From the NCBI RefSeq assembly GCF_058153355.1, contig NZ_CM177019.1: 64,000 nucleotides of DNA. One strand, 5' to 3'. The notes below the pieces were generated by a model. It made no database searches and had not been told where the DNA came from. It was given only the letters and a program-made list of their open reading frames with translations. Shown here one piece after another: positions 2,133 through 19,168 of the stretch. Every line of letters begins with the position of its first letter. Within the stretch, counting starts at the first letter, position 1. Both the position numbers and the translations under genes were made by a program.

Positions 2133-3448
2133 TTATTCACCTCCACATGCCCCTCCAGTACGTCAATCATCCCGTCAGCAATCGCGGTTTCAAGCGACTG
2201 TGCAGATACGCGGCTGATACTGACCAGCACATCCGCACGGTCATTCTGCCTGCCGACTGTCTGTGATGTTCTGACCACAATCCGGGCCATGCCGTCACGG
2301 GTTGCCACAACATACAGCAACTGGTGGTTCTCCCTGTCCCACAATACTGCCTGTGGTTTTGCCATCAGCGACGGCAGATGCTGTAAATCCTCCGGTTTCA
2401 GGGCGGCATCAGCAGTGGTCGCCAGACTTTTCCCGTTCATCACAAGCAGACGGGCTGGCATATTCCCGGTGCGCTGATGTACGGCTTCAGCTACCGATTC
2501 CGTCATAAAACCCAGTGCCCGGATTTCATGACCGGTCTGACGTGATCCTGCCAGGCGTTTAAGCCAGAGGGAAAAAGCAAGCTGACGCTCCCGGCTGTTA
2601 TTCAGCGTCTGAACAACCTGCTCACGCAACTGCGCGTCGCGAATTTCCACCAGTTTTCGAATCAGTGCCTGATCCGTACCAAATGCCGCCGAACCGGGGT
2701 TATATGACCAGCCCACATCCGGCGTCATTTTTACCCGACCGTTGTCAAACGTGGTTGACGATGTGCGGAAAATCTCTCCGGTGCTTTCATCCGTACCGGC
2801 ATCCACTTCGCGGGTATTCATGAATGACGCACCATAACTGACCTGTAGCCCCAGTTCTTTCATGCGGGCCGCAGACAGCGCCCGGACGCGACAGCGGCAG
2901 TTCCAGCCATTGGGCGGGTAATGCGTCTGCCAGAAAATGTCGTCATACCGGAAAACCATATTGTGCAGCCGCGCATGTTCCGGGCGTGTTCTGCCATCCA
3001 TAACGGCAACGTACTGCCAGTACGGGTACAAATCGGCGGTATTCATCATCTGCGCATAACGTCCTGCCCCATACGCCGTACGGGTATTGACGTTATAAAT
3101 GGTTGCCAGACGACGCGGACTGCCCAGCTCGATTACCTTCGCGTTTCCGTCTGCATCCACGATGATTTGTTTTCCCCACCATCCGAGTTTTTGCAGCCGG
3201 GGGGCCAGTGTGCGGGTAAATTCCTCACGGGTGATGCCTTCACTGACAGCCCGCTCCACTTCCTCACGGATTGTGGTCAGGACATCCATCCGGGTGGCTT
3301 TGGCAACGGTAAAGGCGCGGGCGTGCGCGTCTGCCAGTTGTTCGTACCAGTTCCAGGTGATGTTGTAGCCTTTGGCGCGGAAATACGCGACAGCCTCCTT
3401 TGGCGGGAGGCGTGCGGCATACGCCAGATCAATGGTCTGCTGCGGCAT
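2129..3448 (-). CDS. F: Mu F (gp30) head morphogenesis protein
   Basis: The ORF track gives 2129..3484 starting at a GTG. I prefer the ATG at 3448 (MPQQTIDLAYAARLPPKEAV...), which has a G-rich SD-like run upstream. It overlaps the portal gene 3' end. Confidence 0.8.
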   Translation of the reverse strand: MPQQTIDLAYAARLPPKEAVAYFRAKGYNITWNWYEQLADAHARAFTVAKATRMDVLTTIREEVERAVSEGITREEFTRTLAPRLQKLGWWGKQIIVDADGNAKVIELGSPRRLATIYNVNTRTAYGAGRYAQMMNTADLYPYWQYVAVMDGRTRPEHARLHNMVFRYDDIFWQTHYPPNGWNCRCRVRALSAARMKELGLQVSYGASFMNTREVDAGTDESTGEIFRTSSTTFDNGRVKMTPDVGWSYNPGSAAFGTDQALIRKLVEIRDAQLREQVVQTLNNSRERQLAFSLWLKRLAGSRQTGHEIRALGFMTESVAEAVHQRTGNMPARLLVMNGKSLATTADAALKPEDLQHLPSLMAKPQAVLWDRENHQLLYVVATRDGMARIVVRTSQTVGRQNDRADVLVSISRVSAQSLETAIADGMIDVLEGHVEVNK

Positions 3449-7803: not shown

Positions 7804-7997
7804 TATTCTGCTCCACGGCACCAGTGGCAGTAGTTCGCCATCGGCTGCTGTCTCAGCACATCAGGCCGCAGCTCACGACCGCAACCGGCACACAATACAG
7901 GCGGGTCATACGCCGCCGGGCGGGGAATATCACGGGTATCCCCCTGCCAGAGTTCAGCGAGCAGCAGCGCCACCGCCCGGTTCTGGTCTTCGTTCAT
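7803..7997 (-). CDS. Mu gp24, small Cys-pair (zinc-ribbon-like) protein
   Basis: 64-aa ORF with CAGC...CHWC cysteine pairs, at the position of Mu gp24. Confidence 0.6.
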   Translation of the reverse strand: MNEDQNRAVALLLAELWQGDTRDIPRPAAYDPPVLCAGCGRELRPDVLRQQPMANYCHWCRGAE

Positions 7998-8295
7998 AAA
8001 TTTCTTTCCTTCGGGTCTCCTGTTCCCGGACTGATGCCTTGTCGCGGTTGCACTGCCCGAGCGCCATCAACAGGTCAGCATTCCAGAGAAGGGATGCTCC
8101 CCACGTCAGGGGCTGTGGCATGGGCGGAACGGGCGTTGCTTCCGTCAGTTCTGCATCAGTTTCGGGCAGGATCACCACCGATGGCACGGGTGCGTTTTTC
8201 GAGTTCCCGCAACCTGTCAGCAGCAACGGCAGGCACAGGACGAGTGCTGCAATTGTCACCGGTAATGGCGGTTGTAATTTTTTGTTTTGCATCAT
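7954..8295 (-). CDS. Outer-membrane spanin lipoprotein (Mu gp23.1-like), overlapping the i-spanin gene in another frame
   Basis: An internal start in track ORF 7954..8430 gives MMQNKKLQPPLPVTIAALVLCLPLLLTGCGNSK, a signal peptide plus the lipobox LLTGC. It begins inside gp23 and extends past it (overlapped spanin architecture). The start codon is uncertain (8292, 8295 or 8310). Confidence 0.65.
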   Translation of the reverse strand: MMQNKKLQPPLPVTIAALVLCLPLLLTGCGNSKNAPVPSVVILPETDAELTEATPVPPMPQPLTWGASLLWNADLLMALGQCNRDKASVREQETRRKEIYERRPEPGGGAAAR

Positions 8296-9978: not shown

Positions 9979-10368
9979 TTACAGTAGTGAGGGCTGGTAC
10001 TGGCGGTATTTCAGCCGTCGCATCCGGCGAATGGCCTTGTAAACCGTATTGAAAGTGACACCATAACGGGTGGTCAGTTCGCTGACGTTGCGACCGTTAA
10101 AATCATTCCAGATACGCAAATCCCGAATCAGCGAGTCCAGAACCTGACCGCGTGGAATGTAGACCTGACCGCCGCCCAGATGCTTACAGATAGCCACAAC
10201 AATCTCCAGTGAATGGGCAGGATCAACACCCAGCCGGGACAATTCCCCGCGCAGTAAATCGTTCAGCTCCGCCAGCAGTGCCGGAAAGCGTGACGTATCC
10301 TCGGCGGGATTGTCAAGATGTGCCAGGATGGTGTCATCCTGCAAATCACCAAATAAATCTTCCGTCAT
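9979..10368 (-). CDS. mor: Mu middle operon regulator Mor (gp17)
   Basis: 129-aa ORF MTEDLFGDLQDDTILAHLDNPAEDTSRFPALLAELNDLL... matching my recall of Mor. Confidence 0.92.
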   Translation of the reverse strand: MTEDLFGDLQDDTILAHLDNPAEDTSRFPALLAELNDLLRGELSRLGVDPAHSLEIVVAICKHLGGGQVYIPRGQVLDSLIRDLRIWNDFNGRNVSELTTRYGVTFNTVYKAIRRMRRLKYRQYQPSLL

Positions 10369-10916
10369 TGTGCCATCCTCCGTGTCTTTCTGGCATGGGC
10401 ATAAGCCGCCGTCATGGCATCATAGCCGCGCAGTTCACGCCCGGACGGACTGACCGGCAACGGAAGCTCGTGACGGGAAAAGGCTTCACGAATACAGCGG
10501 ATGTGCCACTGCTTGAGTGTTTCGAGGACTGTCAGCAGCGTGTCGCCATGACACCACGCCAGTGTGGAAACGCCCTGTCCGCCGTTGCGTTTCGCGGTCA
10601 GGCGCTGAACATATTTATCCAGCGCCACATCACCGCCATCGGTAATAAAACCGTCTTCTGCCATCTGCTGCCAGACTTTGTATACCTTCTCGCGGGGCGT
10701 GACATGCCCCTTAAAGCGGCGACGTGGATGTTTATTCTGCTTCTTAAAGCCGCGTTCTTTCATGGCATCAATCACCTGTTCCAGTTGCGTAACCGTCAGC
10801 TCGCGGCAACTGATTTTGCCCGTTTTCTGCATCAGAAAGGCGCGGTAAGTATCGTCGCCGAGTTGTAGCTCCCGACGGGCGACATGGATTAATTTAATCA
10901 GGGATGTGCGATTCAT
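10365..10916 (-). CDS. gemA: Mu GemA (gp16)
   Basis: 183-aa ORF MNRTSLIKLIHVARRELQLGDDTYRAFLMQKTGKISCREL... with GGAGG upstream. Its stop overlaps the mor start. Confidence 0.9.
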   Translation of the reverse strand: MNRTSLIKLIHVARRELQLGDDTYRAFLMQKTGKISCRELTVTQLEQVIDAMKERGFKKQNKHPRRRFKGHVTPREKVYKVWQQMAEDGFITDGGDVALDKYVQRLTAKRNGGQGVSTLAWCHGDTLLTVLETLKQWHIRCIREAFSRHELPLPVSPSGRELRGYDAMTAAYAHARKTRRMAQ

Positions 10917-10985
10917 GATCGTACCTCCGGAAAGAGGCGGTGCTGCAACACCGCCTGAATTTACACATCAATCAGAGAGGATTTT

Positions 10986-11252
10986 ATGGAAAATAATGTA
11001 CAACCTTATGATGTTGCAGGTTATGCGATTGCATCAGCACTGGTGCGCCTTCTGGTGAAGAAGGCGATCATCACCGCAGAAGAGGGCCAAGCCATTTTCA
11101 GCTCTTCAGCAGAGATTTTAAAAGATGCGCCTGCAATAAGAACAAGCCGCCGCGAAAACATGCAACTGTCAAAGATCATGGAAGACATTATCAGTTCGTT
11201 AGACCCAGATGCTGACGGATCTCAAAAGCCTCAAACACATGAGCGTCAGTAA
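10986..11252 (+). CDS. Hypothetical 88-aa protein encoded antisense to the Mu early operon
   Basis: ORF-track entry with the SD GAGAGG 5 nt before the ATG and a plausible helical, balanced amino-acid composition. It fills a 275-bp gap that has no minus-strand ORF of 60 aa or more, and it overlaps the gp15 3' end convergently. A competing 57-aa minus-strand ORF (11015..11188) exists. Confidence 0.4.
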   Translation: MENNVQPYDVAGYAIASALVRLLVKKAIITAEEGQAIFSSSAEILKDAPAIRTSRRENMQLSKIMEDIISSLDPDADGSQKPQTHERQ

Positions 11253-11493
11253 CAATATCCTGGTCTGATAACCCCAGCCTGCGGCGGATGTACTCCTCGC
11301 GGGCTGTTTCATTTTGCAGTGCCACTACTGTTTCCAGACGATTCATTTCGCGGTTGATAATGTCACGGACTTCTCTGGCGGTGAGATTATGCTTAATACC
11401 ATATTCAACGATAGCGCGAACACGTTCCAGCATCCCTTTTTCAGCCATGACGTTATCAATATTAAGGGGAGTAAATTTATCTTCATTGTTCAT
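11191..11493 (-). CDS. Mu early protein gp15, unknown function
   Basis: 100-aa ORF whose start overlaps the gp14 stop, within the semi-essential early region. Confidence 0.7.
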   Translation of the reverse strand: MNNEDKFTPLNIDNVMAEKGMLERVRAIVEYGIKHNLTAREVRDIINREMNRLETVVALQNETAREEYIRRRLGLSDQDIVTDAHVFEAFEIRQHLGLTN

Positions 11494-11798
11494 TTTGCGG
11501 CCCTCAGAATAAATTCAGGATAAAATTTCAGACTCATTTGCCGTAACACATCCAGTGCAGCAACGGCTGCTGATTTATCGTTGCCATCAGCAATAGCGCG
11601 GAGATTTTCAATAATCCAGTGAGGACTCAGTGACTCAGCAACAATACCGAGTCGGTACGCCATGACCTCATCAATTGCACGGTTATAAGACGGGGCGTAT
11701 ACCGCCGCCACAAAGTTACCGATCACATCTTCAGGAAAACCCGCCGCCGTCAACAACGCTGTCAGTTCCTCGGATTTTGTAAATACGCCATTATTCAT
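11490..11798 (-). CDS. Mu early protein gp14, unknown function
   Basis: The track ORF starts at a GTG (11813). I prefer the ATG at 11798 (MNNGVFTKSEEL...), which has AAGGTG 7 nt upstream. Confidence 0.65.
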   Translation of the reverse strand: MNNGVFTKSEELTALLTAAGFPEDVIGNFVAAVYAPSYNRAIDEVMAYRLGIVAESLSPHWIIENLRAIADGNDKSAAVAALDVLRQMSLKFYPEFILRAAK

Positions 11799-11982
11799 TC
11801 TGTTCACCTTCACAATTCATGCACGCCGTGTCATCGCCCATATCGCAGTGGTTGCATTTCTGCCCGCCACAATGGGGACACTCTTTCAGATATTCAGGGG
11901 ATTCATTACCGCAGGTCGGGCATTCCTGTTTCACCGTGGTGAATTTCCCCAGCCACGAATACGATGTTTCATTGTTTTCCAT
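11791..11982 (-). CDS. Mu early protein gp13, small zinc-ribbon protein
   Basis: Start chosen at the ATG at 11982 (GGAGG 6 nt upstream): MENNETSYSWLGKFTTVKQECPTCGNESPEYLKECPHCGGQKCNHCDMGDDTACMNCEGEQNE. It has four CxxC-type pairs. Confidence 0.65.
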   Translation of the reverse strand: MENNETSYSWLGKFTTVKQECPTCGNESPEYLKECPHCGGQKCNHCDMGDDTACMNCEGEQNE

Positions 11983-15210: not shown

Positions 15211-16149
15211 TTAATTACGCAGCAGCGTTAAAATATCAACGTCCAGGTCTAATTCACGGAAAGCCTGACGCAGATAATCTTCGTTAACACGCTCACCTTT
15301 ACCATGAGCCGTCATGGCGGCAAGGCGAAGCGAATGATTCAGAATGCGAAGCGCACCGGGTTTCTGTGCAATTTGCTGTAACAACTCCAGTTCTTTTTCG
15401 CCGTTAATATGCCAGGCATCCGCAATAGCTTTTACATCGGCTTTTTTGGTTTTATTAATTGCAGTGGGCTTTGCAATACGGGAAAACAGACGGGCAAATT
15501 CAACCGTTCTGTTGCCCCCCGTCATATTTGAATAAACGCGGTGATTGCCCATCAGCACAAGGCCAGTGCGGGTTGATTCCTGTAACAGGCGGAGTTCTTC
15601 CAGAGCTTCAGCACCAAGATGATCAGCTTCGTCGATGATAACCAGCCCCTGTGTACCTTCAAGGCGGCGTCGCAGGGCGCGGGAGAGCGGCCCTTTACGG
15701 CGTGGTGCGTCATTCATTCCCAGCTCAAACGCCAGTTCAGTAAGACATTCCAGAACGCTGGCACAGGATGGCGTAATGGTGATCATCCAGACATTGTTAT
15801 TGGTGCGGCGATATTCACGGGCCGCTTCGGTTTTGCCCACACCAGGATTGCCACATACAACAGCAATACTTTCAGTCAGGCTGGCAAAACGCATACTTGT
15901 CCAGATTTGTTTTACCGTCTGCGTTTCCACAAAGCGGGGCGGTTCCGGTAGTTCTGCGACTGCATGATATTTTTCCAACCAGCGTTGCAGTATTTGTGCA
16001 ACACGTTCGTTATCCCCGTTGTACTTATCATTGATAAAACTACTGATAGTCCCGGTAGAAAGTCCGCTCTCAAGGGCAATTTGTTTAAAGGTGGTTTCTT
16101 CATTTTCTACAAGGGTGCGCAGTCCTGCGCGAATATCTGAAATATTCAT
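15211..16149 (-). CDS. B: MuB, AAA+ ATP-dependent target DNA activator
   Basis: 312-aa ORF MNISDIRAGLRTLVENEETTFKQIALESGLSTGTISSFINDKYNGDNERV... with Walker A GNPGVGKT and Walker B VIIDEADHL. It matches my recall of MuB. Confidence 0.95.
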   Translation of the reverse strand: MNISDIRAGLRTLVENEETTFKQIALESGLSTGTISSFINDKYNGDNERVAQILQRWLEKYHAVAELPEPPRFVETQTVKQIWTSMRFASLTESIAVVCGNPGVGKTEAAREYRRTNNNVWMITITPSCASVLECLTELAFELGMNDAPRRKGPLSRALRRRLEGTQGLVIIDEADHLGAEALEELRLLQESTRTGLVLMGNHRVYSNMTGGNRTVEFARLFSRIAKPTAINKTKKADVKAIADAWHINGEKELELLQQIAQKPGALRILNHSLRLAAMTAHGKGERVNEDYLRQAFRELDLDVDILTLLRN

Positions 16150-16187: not shown

Positions 16188-18179
16188 TTAAATGACTTTT
16201 TTACGTCTGTTCTGTTCCAGAATATCCAGCGAATGATTCAGATATTCATCACGCTCAGTTTCGTATTCATCATCACGCTCCTGATTCTTCACCCGTTCCG
16301 TATTACCGGAAGGCCGGAAAATGCTTACAATTCGTGATTCTGGTGCTTCAGGTTCGGCTATCTGCGGCAGCAGCTCTGCCACTTCCAGTGCATCCATTTG
16401 TTTCTGTGCCTTAATCGCTGCTTTCGTCGCAGATTTCAGTTGTTTCTGGCGGCGGCGATATTCACGGCCTGCCGCAGCATCATTAAACGCAACAGGTGCC
16501 AGACATTCCGCTTCACAGATAAACCGACCGTCCAGGGTGTAGCAATAAACCGTGCTGTGTAACTGCTGTGGATCAAATCTGACCACAACTTTTTTCACTC
16601 CGGCATTCATTAACGCCATGTTGTAATAAACGTTTTTCGCGCCTTTAAGGGAGCCGCCAACTTTAAGCGCGAACTCGCCTTTACGTGAAACGTTCACCGC
16701 CTCGGCAGGCAGTAACAGCATCCGTTTTTGCTCTTCGGTAGGCTTACGCACAATCGTTCTGGCGTATTCACGCTCAAAAACGTCATCAAACGAAAGTTTG
16801 CCCCCGCACATTTCTGTTTCTCGGCCTGTTCTGGCATTGAACATCGCCACACCTTCGGCAAGGGTTTTCAGAAACAGCTCTGCATCAACAGCGCGGTCGC
16901 CATAGTTATCAGGTTTTGCCTGCGGATTAGGCCCCGTATATGCGCCAGCCAGTGCCGGATGTTTATCAACGTATTCCTCAAGGCCACCAACACCGAAAGC
17001 ACGTTCTACAGGTTTTGCCTGGCCCCAGCCTTTACCGGCAACAACGCTTGTCCAGTGCATGGTCGCCCCCATCAGTAAAAACAGCCCCTTTGGATCGTCC
17101 TCTTTCACCTTAAAGCGGTAGCGATTGGGCGCGCCCCCCGTCAGCCATTTATTCGCAGCACCACGGGTGTTATCAATGGTGATGTGAAAATCCTCCGGGA
17201 TGCCGTAGCGTGTCACTACATCCATGAACGAGAGGCGAATTGAATCGATGTTCTCGCTAACATCGCAGCGCCAGCCCAGAATTTTTCGGGTTTTCACATC
17301 CTGCCAGAACCATGTTTTCGGGCGGATCACATCACCGTTAAACCAGCGTACAAAGACGTTATGCAGATAACCGTCGCCGTTGATCCACTGCATGGCGTCC
17401 AGGTGTTCCACAGTTCGTTGCTGTGCCGGTATCAGATGCATCAGTGCATGTTCACCTTCACGGCAGGCAACAACCATTGCCCCGTCCAGTTGCTGAATCC
17501 GGCGAAATGCCGTGGCTCGGGAGGGAATACTCCAGCCATGCTCGCGGGCTGCCAGTTCCAGACGCTCATAACATTTGCGGAAGGCGGGTTTTTCCGGTCG
17601 CAGATAATCTGCAATCAGAAACTGCCAGGCATCCTCGTCAAATTCACTTTTGTGAACATTGCGACGGGATGCTCCACGTCCATCAACAAGTGCAGCCGCC
17701 CAGTCAGGCTTCGCAAACTTCTGTACCTGGTAATACTTGTCCCGCAAAGTGGATGCGCTGACCTGGTAATGCCCTGCAACGGTCGCAAAAGCCGTTTTCG
17801 TTGAAATCCCCTGGTTCAGCATTTCGTCTGCAGCCTGAACCGCAGGCAACCATTTTTCAGCAAGTCTGCGCTGGGAATCGCTGGCGTTATCCCATTTGCT
17901 CCACAGTGCCTCACGATCATAATCATGGGCTTCCAGCGTGGGGCGGGCGATTTCAAAATACCCCTGACTTGTTTCAATCTCTCCTTGTCTCAGCAATAAC
18001 GCCGCTTTCGCTTCAACAGGTAAAGAGTTCGCATTGTATTCAATTGCTTTACCACCTTTGACACCTGCTCTAGTGCGGTTTTGCCATCCTTGCTTTTTAG
18101 CAACATAAATCACACCAGCCGATGTTTTCGGCAAACCAGGAAGATTCGCACACTCTTTCGGTGATACCCAAAGTTCCAT
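16188..18179 (-). CDS. A: MuA DDE transposase
   Basis: The track ORF (666 aa) is trimmed to [48 protein letters not shown]... (663 aa, the MuA length I recall). Confidence 0.95.
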
Positions 18180-18180
18180 G

Positions 18181-18408
18181 TTATTCACCTGCTTGATATC
18201 GGCTAGGCCAGATTACTTCCGGTTTAGTTTCTAAGGCGTTAGCAATAATCTGCTCACCCTTTGGCCAGTGTCGTTCTAGCGCATTAGCTAATGTAGTTGG
18301 CGCATAACCGAACTGCCGGGAAAGAGCTGATAAAGAGAGCTTTCTTTTCTTAAGTCCCGCAATCACATCCGCTCGATGCCAATCACGGGCCTTTTCGTTG
18401 GAACACAT
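18181..18408 (-). CDS. ner: Mu Ner, Cro-like negative regulator of early transcription
   Basis: 75-aa [55 protein letters not shown]... matching my recall of Ner. Confidence 0.93.
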
Positions 18409-18577: not shown

Positions 18578-19168
18578 TTGAAAAGTAACTTTATAGAAAA
18601 AGACGATACTGAAAAGTCAATTTGGTGTTCGCCGCAAGAAATTATGGCTGCTGATGGTATGCCTGGATCTGTTGCTGGTGTTCACTATCGAGCAAATGTT
18701 CAAGGCTGGACGAAGCGAAAAAAGGAAGGTGTCAAGGGGGGGAAAGCTGTTGAATACGATGTGATGTCTATGCCCACCAAAGAACGAGAGCAAGTTATTG
18801 CGCACTTGGGGTTATCCACACCGGATACTGGTGTTCAAGCCAATGAGAAACAGGATTCTTCGGAACTGATAAACAAATTAACCACAACCTTAATCAATAT
18901 GATTGAAGAGCTGGAACCAGATGAAGCACGCAAGGCACTGAAACTTTTAAGTAAAGGGGGGTTGTTGGCGTTAATGCCTCTTGTATTTAATGAACAGAAA
19001 CTTTACAGCTTTATAGGATTTTCACAGCAAAGTATTCAGACGTTGATGATGTTAGATGCATTACCTGAAGAAAAACGCAAAGAGATTTTGTCAAAGTATG
19101 GGATTCATGAACAGGAAAGTGTTGTAGTACCTTCACAGGAACCACAGGAGGTAAAAAAAGCCGTATAA
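18578..19168 (+). CDS. c: Mu repressor c (Repc)
   Basis: 196-aa ORF with a TTG start: MKSNFIEK..TEKSIWCSPQEIMAADGMPGSVAGVHYRANVQGWTKRKKEGVKGGKAVEYDV... It matches my recall of Repc, and its N-terminus is paralogous to the MuA N-terminus in the same window. Confidence 0.95.
   Translation: MKSNFIEKDDTEKSIWCSPQEIMAADGMPGSVAGVHYRANVQGWTKRKKEGVKGGKAVEYDVMSMPTKEREQVIAHLGLSTPDTGVQANEKQDSSELINKLTTTLINMIEELEPDEARKALKLLSKGGLLALMPLVFNEQKLYSFIGFSQQSIQTLMMLDALPEEKRKEILSKYGIHEQESVVVPSQEPQEVKKAV

What the first reader, a model, noticed from the sequence alone, without database searches (positions are those of the whole stretch)
10917..11252. SD-preceded 88-aa ORF antisense to the Mu early operon, in a gap between gp15 and gemA
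The Mu early operon is otherwise packed, with overlapping stops and starts. Between the gp15 stop (11191) and the gemA start (10916), however, there is a 275-bp stretch with no minus-strand ORF of 60 aa or more.

On the opposite strand, which is the strand of the repressor gene, an 88-aa ORF (10986..11252) is preceded by GAGAGG-N5-ATG. It encodes a plausible helical protein (MENNVQPYDVAGYAIASALVRLLVKKAIITAEEGQAIF...) and overlaps the gp15 3' end convergently by 62 nt.

A competing reading is a 57-aa minus-strand ORF (11188..11015, MSSMIFDSCMFSRRLVLIAGASFK...) starting 2 nt after the gp15 stop. Published Mu maps, as I recall them, show no leftward gene here.

If the plus-strand ORF is real, it would be transcribed against early transcription. 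It could therefore be a lysogen-expressed moron (exclusion or defence function) or part of an antisense regulatory arrangement.
Basis: seen in the sequence. Interest (0 to 1): 0.55.

Follow-up and report, generated by a model that had tools for sequence, protein, structure and literature searches.

The report
Phage Mu gene 15, leftward ORF
The 88-codon reading frame that runs against the Mu early operon is a real but already catalogued gene (Mu gene 15, function unknown), and comparison with distant Mu-like prophages shows that it, and not the competing frame on the other strand, is the one evolution preserves.

Summary
It is not unmapped. It is Mu gene 15 (Mup15, NP_050619.1) and orf16 of SfMu.

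Public annotation is split. RefSeq and PGAP call the plus ORF. The updated GenBank Mu record replaced it with the 55-aa minus ORF (Mu_54).

The two frames share wobble positions, so dN/dS cannot separate them. Other evidence favours the plus frame:
- Homologues of 41-51% identity in other E. coli and Salmonella Mu-like prophages sit at the same place and orientation, intact at 86-90 aa, with a conserved SD and start.
- The minus frame there has an internal stop or no ATG.
- Substitutions are more conservative in the plus frame.
- A plus-strand intrinsic terminator lies 23 nt after the stop, inside gp14. It is kept in D108 and in a third allele by different sequence, with G·U pairs that work only on the plus strand.

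The site is polymorphic, with at least four alleles or none.

No promoter, expression data or function were found. Lysogen-expressed moron is plausible but untested.

Verdict: a real gene, already known, of modest interest.

The parts
10986..11252 (+). Gene 15 (Mup15 homologue) CDS, 88 aa. Predicted as three helices (residues 10-25, 31-46, 61-72) with a disordered C-terminal tail encoded antisense to the 3' end of gp14.
   Evidence: ORF. It is 95.5% identical to Mu and 100% to SfMu by tblastn. Mup15 annotation. phrog_8747, E 1.3e-60. Distant syntenic homologues of 41-51% identity (identities). AlphaFold2 model with mean pLDDT 65.
10975..10980 (+). Shine-Dalgarno sequence GAGAGG, 5 nt before the ATG.
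   Evidence: Sequence. A purine-rich equivalent (AGAGGA, AGAAGG) sits at the same spacing in the divergent lineages L018, L022 and L023.
11275..11316 (+). Intrinsic terminator of the gene 15 transcript: a 13-pair interrupted GC-rich stem (11275-11306) followed by TTTCATTTTG. It is embedded antisense in the gp14 coding sequence.
   Evidence: RNA fold. The same hairpin plus T-tract follows the stop in L018, L028, L023, L027, type C L031 and, with different sequence, D108. In the alignment, 94% of cells are paired, 3 pairs show compensatory changes, and 11 of 72 cells are G·U or U·G pairs that would be A·C mismatches on the minus strand. The Mu record lists a TransTermHP terminator at this place.
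10936..10955 (.). Conserved palindrome GGCGGTG-N6-CACCGCC in the 69-nt spacer between the divergent gemA and gene 15 start codons. Its role is unknown. On the minus strand it is followed by a T-rich tract just before the gemA SD.
   Evidence: The arms are invariant and the loop variable across Mu, D108, YpM3, L018, L028, L022 and L023 and L031. It is a stable hairpin on either strand and occurs once in the window.
10932..10997 (-). Stretch corresponding to the 'semi-early promoter' (gem promoter) annotated in the updated Mu record. It overlaps the gene 15 SD and start codon.
   Evidence: Feature at Mu 8151-8217 in AF083977, mapped to the window. Sigma70-like matches with a -10 ending 41-52 nt upstream of the gemA ATG occur in D108, L022, L023 and L031. 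The window and Mu show only a weak match there, read by eye (TAAATT at 10958-10963).
11021..11188 (-). 55-aa minus-strand ORF (Mu_54 of the updated AF083977), judged to be a shadow ORF of gene 15.
   Evidence: It shares wobble positions with gene 15. It has an in-frame stop in L022, L023-L026 and L027, and no ATG at the equivalent start there. Its BLOSUM sums are 65-88 against 102-128 for the plus frame. It has no family match.
11191..11493 (-). gp14 (Mup14, old E15), 100 aa. It is the convergent partner whose last 62 nt overlap gene 15 and whose coding sequence carries the gene 15 terminator.
   Evidence: Annotations. Homologues of 33-71% identity accompany every gene 15 allele.
10365..10916 (-). 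gemA (gp16), transcribed divergently from gene 15.
   Evidence: Pfam GemA, E 1.5e-30. Annotations.

Best explanation
The plus-strand ORF 10986..11252 is the window's copy of phage Mu gene 15 (Mup15). It is a genuine protein-coding gene transcribed leftward, on the repressor strand, inside the rightward early operon.

Shown:
- It encodes a small soluble, mostly helical protein of 88 aa.
- Its N-terminal two-helix core (YDVAGY...LLV.KgIIT.eEG..I) is under purifying selection.
- It has its own ribosome-binding site.
- It has its own Rho-independent terminator, written antisense into the coding sequence of the convergent gene gp14.
- It occupies a polymorphic site next to gemA that in related phages holds diverged alleles, a different gene, or nothing.
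- The 55-aa minus-strand ORF now annotated as Mu_54 in GenBank AF083977 is its shadow frame.

Inferred:
- Gene 15 is a dispensable accessory (moron-like) unit.
- It converges on Pe-driven early transcription and abuts the gem promoter. It is therefore most likely expressed when Pe is repressed, that is in the lysogen, and silenced by transcriptional interference after induction.
- Its product most likely acts as a small oligomerising, SHOCT-like adaptor or regulator and not as an enzyme.

Its biochemical target is unknown.
For: Identity and synteny:
- It is 95.5% identical to Mu and 100% to SfMu.
- It is annotated as Mup15 in NC_000929, gp16 in SfMu and WP_021578945.1 by PGAP.

Distant homologues from a full HMMER scan of 1.8 billion representatives:
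- P0007, 51% identity, E 7e-18; P0008, E 5e-12; P0009, E 1e-11. P0010 and P0011 were added by a profile search.
- All are 86-90 aa.
- Where gemA is on the contig, the gene starts about 70 nt upstream of it on the opposite strand. Where the 104-108-aa gp14 homologue is intact, the two 3' ends overlap.

Frame discrimination:
- Differences per codon position are 25, 18 and 35 of 66 for window versus L018. My chi-square on these counts is about 9.3 with 2 df.
- In the YDVAGY codons, which lie almost entirely outside the minus ORF, the only changes are at third positions.
- BLOSUM sums are 102-128 for the plus frame and 65-88 for the minus frame over the same bases.
- The minus frame has an in-frame stop and lacks a start in the Salmonella lineages.
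- SD and ATG are conserved.
- GC and AT skew turn positive locally over about 10800-11200 (GC) and 10800-11300 (AT), as expected for plus-strand coding.

Transcription unit:
- A hairpin plus T-tract lies 23 nt after the stop on the plus strand only.
- It recurs in every lineage, including D108 and type C, with different sequence.
- It shows compensatory changes and plus-strand-only G·U pairs.

Accessory nature:
- Gene 15 is precisely absent in vB_YpM_3 and E. coli JCKP02.
- It is replaced by a 119-aa ORF in D108, a 79-aa ORF in L031 and L033, and a 138-aa ORF in eight IMG/VR loci.
- gp14 and gp15 are deleted together in FDA1058 and L042.
- It is present in 26 of about 72 E. coli complete genomes that carry this gemA type.
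- Profile comparison aligns the same core between the Mu type and type C (E 2.9e-4) and the D108 type (E 6.8e-3).
- There are weak SHOCT and SHOCT-like Pfam hits.
Against: - No sigma70-like promoter was found upstream on the plus strand, so autonomy of transcription is not shown.
- No expression, proteomic or phenotypic data were found in the searchable literature.
- Among close relatives (9 variable sites) the plus frame shows 4 amino-acid changes against 1 synonymous change in the region shared with Mu_54. There is thus no sign of purifying selection at short range.
- dN/dS does not separate the two frames.
- In L018 and L028 the minus frame also stays open.
- Curators of the updated Mu GenBank record chose the minus ORF.
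- The structure model has only moderate confidence, and no structural or family relative gives a function.
- The SHOCT matches are below Pfam cut-offs.
Confidence: 0.8

Rival explanations
1. The minus-strand 55-aa ORF (Mu_54 of the updated AF083977) is the real gene. It would be translated by coupling 2 nt after the gp14 stop as part of the early operon, and the plus ORF would be its antisense shadow.
For: - It keeps the operon co-directional and starts 2 nt after the gp14 stop.
- The roughly 220-bp segment missing in vB_YpM_3 and JCKP02 begins right at the gp14 stop and contains the whole minus ORF, but only the first 68 codons of the plus ORF.
- The frame is open in Mu, SfMu, L018 and L028.
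- Expert curators chose it.
Against: - It has an in-frame stop and no ATG in the Salmonella lineages, where the plus ORF is intact.
- Its substitutions are radical (W/L, M/S) and its BLOSUM sums are roughly a fifth to two-fifths lower in all but one of the distant comparisons.
- Protein-level conservation extends about 12 codons beyond its stop.
- The annotated RBS is only 3 nt.
- It has no PHROG, Pfam or NCBIfam relative.
- D108 and type C alleles have no equivalent minus ORF other than shadow frames.
- It does not explain the plus-strand-specific terminator.
Confidence: 0.06
2. Neither frame is translated. The gap would be regulatory DNA only: the gem ('semi-early') promoter, the palindrome, and possibly an antisense RNA that ends at the terminator and modulates gp14 and gemA expression.
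For: - A promoter for gemA is annotated in this stretch.
- The literature reports constitutive gem operon expression in lysogens (PMC3820752, citing Paolozzi and Ghelardini 1992).
- The palindrome and terminator are conserved RNA-level features.
- There is no short-range purifying selection.
Against: - Codon-position periodicity is present: 18 differences at second positions against 35 at third.
- Amino-acid identity is 41-51% at about 61% nucleotide identity, with conservative replacements.
- ORF length, ATG and SD are preserved in five lineages.
- Three allelic types all keep a long plus-strand ORF with a shared core motif.
Confidence: 0.05
3. Gene 15 is not a lysogenic-conversion moron but a dedicated regulator of the divergently transcribed gem operon. 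The small helical protein would bind the invariant palindrome (or RNA polymerase at the overlapping gem promoter) and set gemA and mor expression.
For: - The arrangement is divergent, with only 69 nt between the start codons, and an invariant 7-bp-arm palindrome lies between them.
- Predicted gem-promoter elements overlap the gene 15 SD and ATG.
- The conserved part of the protein is a helix-turn-helix-like pair.
- Allele types A, B and C all co-occur with the palindrome, whereas the unrelated type D lacks it.
Against: - The palindrome is retained in phages that have lost gene 15.
- The helices, at 16 residues each, are long for a classical HTH, and no DNA-binding family matches.
- The palindrome followed by a T-tract reads equally well as a terminator or an RNA hairpin.
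Confidence: 0.15

Closest known systems
Phage Mu gene 15 (Mup15, NP_050619.1; 'F-134' in M64097; SfMu orf16, YP_009152202.1; phrog_8747)
   Same: It is the same gene: 95.5-100% amino-acid identity, with the same position, strand, length and 62-nt overlap with the neighbouring gene.
   Different: Nothing of substance differs. There are four conservative substitutions relative to Mu. No function has ever been assigned. The updated GenBank Mu record no longer lists it and annotates the opposite strand instead.
Morons of temperate phages (autonomous promoter-gene-terminator units inserted between phage genes and often expressed from the prophage; concept from lambdoid phages, from my own knowledge)
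   Same: It is a small gene of unrelated function inside an operon of different orientation. It has its own terminator, shows presence/absence and allelic polymorphism among close relatives, and is dispensable.
   Different: No own promoter has been demonstrated. Base composition is not distinct from the flanks. The terminator and the last 20 codons are overprinted on the neighbouring gene instead of lying in intergenic DNA. Expression in the lysogen is untested.
Opposite-strand and overlapping accessory genes of Pseudomonas Mu-like phage Fc02 (olg1 and gene 10; PMC9936078)
   Same: This is a transposable-phage early region with small genes on opposite strands that overlap each other. One set there is transcribed with the repressor in the lysogen and gives superinfection exclusion.
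   Different: The location differs (next to repressor and ner, not next to gemA), no sequence similarity was found, and expression and exclusion were measured there but not here.
SHOCT / SHOCT-like domains (PF20612, PF22746)
   Same: They share the motif L..LV.kGiIT.eE...I on a helix-loop-helix, and members of the family give weak hits (best E 0.0014 and 0.046).
   Different: The hits are below curated thresholds and occur in only 2-3 of 9 members. The window protein itself has no hit. SHOCT is usually a C-terminal module, whereas here the motif is N-terminal.

Membership tests
Mu gene 15 (Mup15) / phrog_8747 | Sequence similarity over the full length | tested here: met
   tblastn gives 95.5% identity to Mu and 100% to SfMu over residues 1-88. 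phrog_8747 matches at E 1.3e-60 over 1-88 of 88.
Mu gene 15 (Mup15) / phrog_8747 | Position and orientation: divergent from gemA and convergent with gp14, overlapping it | tested here: met
   The layout matches NC_000929 (complement 7896..8162, between Mup14 and Mup16) and SfMu. The overlap is 62 nt, as published for SfMu.
Protein-coding gene (as opposed to a shadow ORF) | ORF, start codon and RBS kept in divergent relatives while the alternative frame decays | tested here: met
   The plus ORF is intact at 86-90 aa with a conserved SD and ATG in five lineages. The minus frame has an in-frame stop in L022, L023-26 and L027.
Protein-coding gene (as opposed to a shadow ORF) | dN/dS below 1 specifically in this frame | tested here: inconclusive
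   The distant pairs give 0.21-0.60 in the plus frame and 0.19-0.60 in the minus frame, because the frames share wobble positions. Close relatives have too few changes to judge.
Moron | Own transcription terminator | tested here: met
   A plus-strand hairpin plus T-tract lies at 11275-11316. It is conserved by structure across alleles and has plus-only G·U pairs.
Moron | Own promoter | tested here: inconclusive
   The consensus scan found 0 sites. A relaxed scan found only weak, poorly conserved matches, such as TTAATC-17-GATCGT over the gemA start.
Moron | Present or absent between otherwise collinear relatives | tested here: met
   It is absent in vB_YpM_3, JCKP02, L050 and L053, and replaced by other alleles in D108, L031 and L035.
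Moron | Expressed from the repressed prophage; confers a host phenotype | not testable with these tools
   No transcriptome, proteome or phenotype data for this gene were found in the searchable literature.
Known anti-phage defence systems (PADLOC) | Match to a defence-protein model | tested here: not met
   No hit for the Mu-type protein or for allele types B, C and D at E up to 1.
SHOCT domain (Pfam) | Score above the Pfam gathering threshold | tested here: not met
   The window protein has no hit. The best family members reach E 0.0014 (SHOCT-like_DUF2089-C, 2 of 9) and 0.046 (SHOCT_2, 3 of 9).
Mu_54 (AAF01092.2) as a conserved gene | ORF conserved in related phages | tested here: not met
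   The ORF is interrupted or lacks a start in the Salmonella lineages. D108 and type C alleles have no counterpart. No family matches it.

The most novel reading that the evidence does not exclude
gp14 and gene 15 may form one fast-evolving, convergently overlapping accessory module. Its leftward member would be fired from a promoter facing the gem promoter across the invariant palindrome. RNA polymerase traffic from Pe or Pgem and from gene 15 would then be mutually exclusive. Gene 15 would be a lysogeny-only product, such as a superinfection-exclusion or anti-defence factor, or a modulator of the gem operon. Its allelic diversity (types A, B and C share only a 30-residue core) would reflect an arms race.
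Probability: 0.2. Interest if true: 0.55.

Novelty: already known. Interest (0 to 1): 0.28.

Why it matters
Mu is a reference phage, yet its two main public records disagree about which strand codes here. RefSeq NC_000929 has leftward gene 15, and the updated GenBank AF083977 has rightward Mu_54. The comparative evidence gathered here settles that in favour of gene 15. It also shows that the 'terminator' listed inside gene 14 belongs to the leftward transcript.

The analysis identifies the site beside gemA as a hot spot that holds at least four different opposite-strand genes. That gives anyone studying the poorly understood semi-essential region, or lysogenic conversion by Mu-like prophages, a concrete and testable candidate. 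It does not reveal a new kind of system.

Tried and rejected
- **dN/dS per frame.** Uninformative, because the two frames share wobble positions.
- **Variation among close relatives.** Only 9 variable sites, so it cannot decide.
- **BLASTP between the Mu-type and D108-type proteins.** Not significant. Only profile comparison aligns the core, and that remains suggestive.
- **P0006, a 1438-aa repeat protein (E 1e-23 summed over 12 repeats).** Rejected as a compositional or repeat artefact.
- **Scan of GTDB species genomes with the 88-aa protein.** No relative found, so the family is narrow (E. coli, Shigella, Salmonella).
- **Function searches.** PDB sequence search, Foldseek against PDB and BFVD, NCBIfam and PADLOC gave nothing informative. 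BFVD returned only the old Mu F-134 entry.
- **afdb50.** The library was unavailable.
- **Promoter scans.** No convincing plus-strand promoter.
- **PMID 9454718, cited for the semi-early promoter.** Not held, so the exact gem promoter elements could not be checked.
- **Literature searches for Mup15 or gp15 of Mu.** Nothing relevant beyond the SfMu paper.
- **The palindrome as a Mor or C activator site.** Considered and set aside on geometry alone, from my own knowledge of the roughly -43 position of those sites. This was not tested.

Full report
**What is there**

The window carries a Mu-like prophage with its early operon on the minus strand.
- Transposase A lies at 16188-18188, B at 15211-16149 and ner at 18181-18408.
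- The 196-aa repressor frame is on the plus strand at 18578-19168.
- gemA is 10365..10916 (-) (Pfam GemA, E 1.5e-30).
- The next minus-strand gene upstream is 11191..11493.

Between these two lies a 274-nt stretch with no minus ORF of 60 aa or more. The competing minus ORF is 55 aa (11188..11021), not 57.

ORF length alone means little here. The same listing shows a 219-aa ORF antisense to gemA. In addition, the plus and minus candidate frames share their third-codon positions. That geometry lets a real gene cast a long open shadow frame on the other strand.

**It is already on the map**

- RefSeq Mu (NC_000929) annotates exactly this ORF as Mup15 / gp15, complement(7896..8162).
- The 1991 left-end record M64097 already listed a putative reverse-strand ORF, 'F-134', here.
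- SfMu annotates it as gp16, and its paper states that 'the maximum overlap of 62 bp was detected between orfs15-16' (PMC4406740).
- PGAP calls it in E. coli prophages as WP_021578945.1.
- It defines phrog_8747 (E 1.3e-60).

Against this, the updated GenBank Mu record AF083977 annotates the minus 55-aa ORF as Mu_54. It also lists a 'semi-early promoter' upstream of gemA and a TransTermHP terminator inside gene 14. Mu_54 carries protein id AAF01092.2, a second version of the id that sits between those of gp14 and gemA. So the public record is split on which strand codes.

**Which strand codes**

A full HMMER scan of 1.8 billion representative proteins with the 88-aa sequence found three diverged relatives:
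- P0007: 88 aa, 51% identity, E 7e-18.
- P0008: 90 aa, E 5e-12.
- P0009: 86 aa, E 1e-11.

A profile search added P0010 and P0011. They come from E. coli and Salmonella enterica. In the aligned set these five proteins are 41-50% identical to the window protein.

On the contigs that include gemA, the gene starts about 70 nt upstream of it on the opposite strand. It overlaps the 3' end of a 104-108-aa gp14 homologue, except in L022, where an IS has replaced that end. The gp14 homologues are 33-71% identical to the window's.

The evidence for the plus frame:
- **Periodicity.** At about 61% nucleotide identity, differences fall 25, 18 and 35 on plus-frame codon positions 1, 2 and 3 of 66 codons. 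My chi-square on these counts is about 9.3 with 2 df. This shows coding periodicity.
- **Position 1 versus 2.** Second positions change less than first positions in the plus frame. This would be reversed if the minus frame were the coding one.
- **Substitution quality.** Over identical bases, the plus translations score BLOSUM sums of 102-128 against 65-88 for the minus translations.
- **Frame integrity.** The minus frame carries an in-frame stop and no ATG at the equivalent start in L022, L023-26 and L027. The plus ORF, its ATG and a purine-rich SD are kept everywhere.
- **Conservation beyond the minus ORF.** The most conserved peptide (YDVAGY) lies almost entirely outside the minus ORF and differs only at third positions.
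- **Skew.** GC and AT skew turn positive locally over about 10800-11200 (GC) and 10800-11300 (AT).

Limits of this evidence:
- dN/dS does not discriminate: for the distant pairs it is 0.21-0.60 in the plus frame and 0.19-0.60 in the minus frame.
- Close relatives offer only 9 variable sites.
- The minus frame remains open in L018 and L028.

**A transcription unit of its own**

Twenty-three nucleotides after the stop, the plus strand folds into a 13-pair GC-rich stem (11275-11306) followed by TTTCATTTTG. The minus strand folds less well and has no T-tract.

The same stop-hairpin-T-tract layout follows the homologues in L018, L028, L023 and L027. With diverged or different sequence, it also follows the corresponding ORFs of D108 and of a third allele, L031.

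In an alignment of six versions:
- 94% of cells pair.
- Three pairs show compensatory changes.
- Eleven of 72 cells are G·U or U·G pairs, which would be A·C mismatches in the minus-strand RNA.

The hairpin sits inside the gp14 coding sequence, in the codons for A-R...R-R-L. The TransTermHP terminator listed in the Mu record at Mu 7839-7873 is this element. It makes sense as the terminator of the leftward transcript, not of the early operon.

I could not find a convincing plus-strand promoter.

**The site is a polymorphic accessory locus**

- vB_YpM_3 and E. coli JCKP02 lack about 10968-11188 precisely, which puts the gp14 stop 51 nt from gemA.
- D108 has unrelated DNA there, with an unannotated 119-aa plus-strand ORF that starts at the same place.
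- Among 24 IMG/VR loci retrieved with GemA, the opposite-strand slot holds:
  - the Mu type (10 loci);
  - the D108 type (2 loci);
  - a 79-aa type C (2 loci);
  - a 138-aa weakly DUF2513-like type D without the palindrome (8 loci);
  - a deletion remnant (L042);
  - nothing (2 loci).
- FDA1058 and L042 have lost gp14 and gene 15 together.
- In complete E. coli genomes, 26 carry full-length Mu-type gene 15 and about 72 carry this gemA type.

Profile comparison aligns the same core (hydrophobic helix, K/N-G-I-I-T/N, second helix) between the Mu family and type C (E 2.9e-4) and the D108 type (E 6.8e-3). This suggests one fast-evolving family, though BLASTP alone sees nothing.

**The protein**

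- AlphaFold2 with the nine-sequence alignment gives three helices (10-25, 31-46, 61-72) with mean pLDDT 65 and about 80 in the core. The tail, which is the part encoded antisense to gp14, is disordered.
- The protein has no Pfam, NCBIfam or PADLOC family.
- Some members give weak SHOCT or SHOCT-like hits.
- No informative structural neighbour was found.

**Neighbouring signals**

The 69-nt spacer between the divergent gemA and gene 15 start codons holds a palindrome, GGCGGTG-N6-CACCGCC (10936-10955).
- Its arms are invariant in every lineage that has it, while the loop varies.
- It occurs once in the window.
- On the minus strand it is followed by a T-rich tract (T8 in Salmonella prophages) just before the gemA SD.

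The annotated semi-early (gem) promoter maps to about 10932-10997, overlapping the gene 15 SD and ATG. In D108, L022, L023 and L031, sigma70-like elements place a -10 just upstream of the palindrome. The literature reports constitutive gem expression in lysogens. How these elements interact with gene 15 is open.

**Mechanism**

Shown: a conserved, translatable leftward gene with its own terminator, dispensable and allelically variable.

Inferred: it is an accessory unit expressed mainly when rightward early transcription is off, because it converges on Pe transcripts and its 5' end interlocks with the gem promoter. Its product would be a small oligomerising helical protein that acts by binding a partner.

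The main functional rival is a local regulator of the gem operon acting at the palindrome. The strand rival (Mu_54) and the 'non-coding' rival are each unlikely.

**Verdict**

However, the gene is Mu gene 15, known and unnamed since at least 2002, and the arrangement has been published for SfMu.

What is new is modest:
- a resolution of conflicting annotations;
- reassignment of a terminator to the leftward transcript;
- a picture of the locus as a hot spot of opposite-strand alleles.

Function and expression remain unknown.

Noticed in passing
window 10936-10955: There is a perfect palindrome, GGCGGTG-N6-CACCGCC, between gemA and gene 15. Its arms are invariant across Mu, D108, SfMu, and other E. 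coli and Salmonella Mu-like prophages, while the loop varies. On the early (minus) strand it is followed by a T-rich tract right before the gemA SD, so it looks like a terminator or attenuator, or an operator, in front of the gem operon. It occurs once in the window.
   Followed up: partly
L004 (D108, NC_013594) 2187-2546 +: D108 has an unannotated 119-aa opposite-strand ORF in the 377-bp 'empty' gap between gemA and gene 14. It has its own strong hairpin plus T6 terminator, and it is the D108 counterpart of Mu gene 15. LR595867 annotates a hypothetical protein under it.
   Followed up: partly
L031/L033 and L035-L037, L046, L047, L051, L052, L054 (IMG/VR), upstream of gemA: Two further opposite-strand alleles occupy the same slot. 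One is a 79-aa protein (MSVENNASITFNLVSGLMVKLVRNK...) sharing the gene 15 core. The other is a 138-aa (134 aa in L054), weakly DUF2513-like protein that starts 30 nt from gemA in loci lacking the palindrome.
   Followed up: partly
L008 (E. coli FDAARGOS_1058) about 2060-2110; L042: A deletion joins the first 5 codons of gene 15 to the first few codons of gp14 head to head, removing both gene bodies. gp14 and gene 15 thus behave as one removable module. The resulting 82-aa 'ORF' is antisense to gene 13 and probably meaningless.
   Followed up: partly
L023/L024 (Salmonella enterica Mu-like prophages) 3052-3387 +: A second opposite-strand ORF (111 aa, weak DUF3256 hit) is inserted between mor and gemA. 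This suggests that leftward accessory genes recur in this part of Mu-like early regions.
   Followed up: no
L022 4236-5444: An IS256-family transposase (Transposase_mut) is inserted at the 3' end of the gene 15 homologue in a Salmonella Aberdeen prophage. It replaces the C-terminal tail of that protein and disrupts the gp14 homologue.
   Followed up: no
window 11490-11813 (-): The window, like SfMu and the FDAARGOS_1059 prophage, has an extra 107-aa (102 aa as annotated in those records) early gene between Mu genes 13 and 14 that Mu itself lacks. This explains why Mu covers only 82% of the 1.6-kb query.
   Followed up: no
window 10986-10998 (+) and 11961-11973 (-): Gene 15 and gene 13 (E14) both begin ATGGAAAATAATG (Met-Glu-Asn-Asn), in inverted orientation about 1 kb apart, so the sequence forms a 13-nt inverted repeat flanking the variable gp14/gp15 module. 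This was read from the translations and not verified by a repeat search.
   Followed up: no
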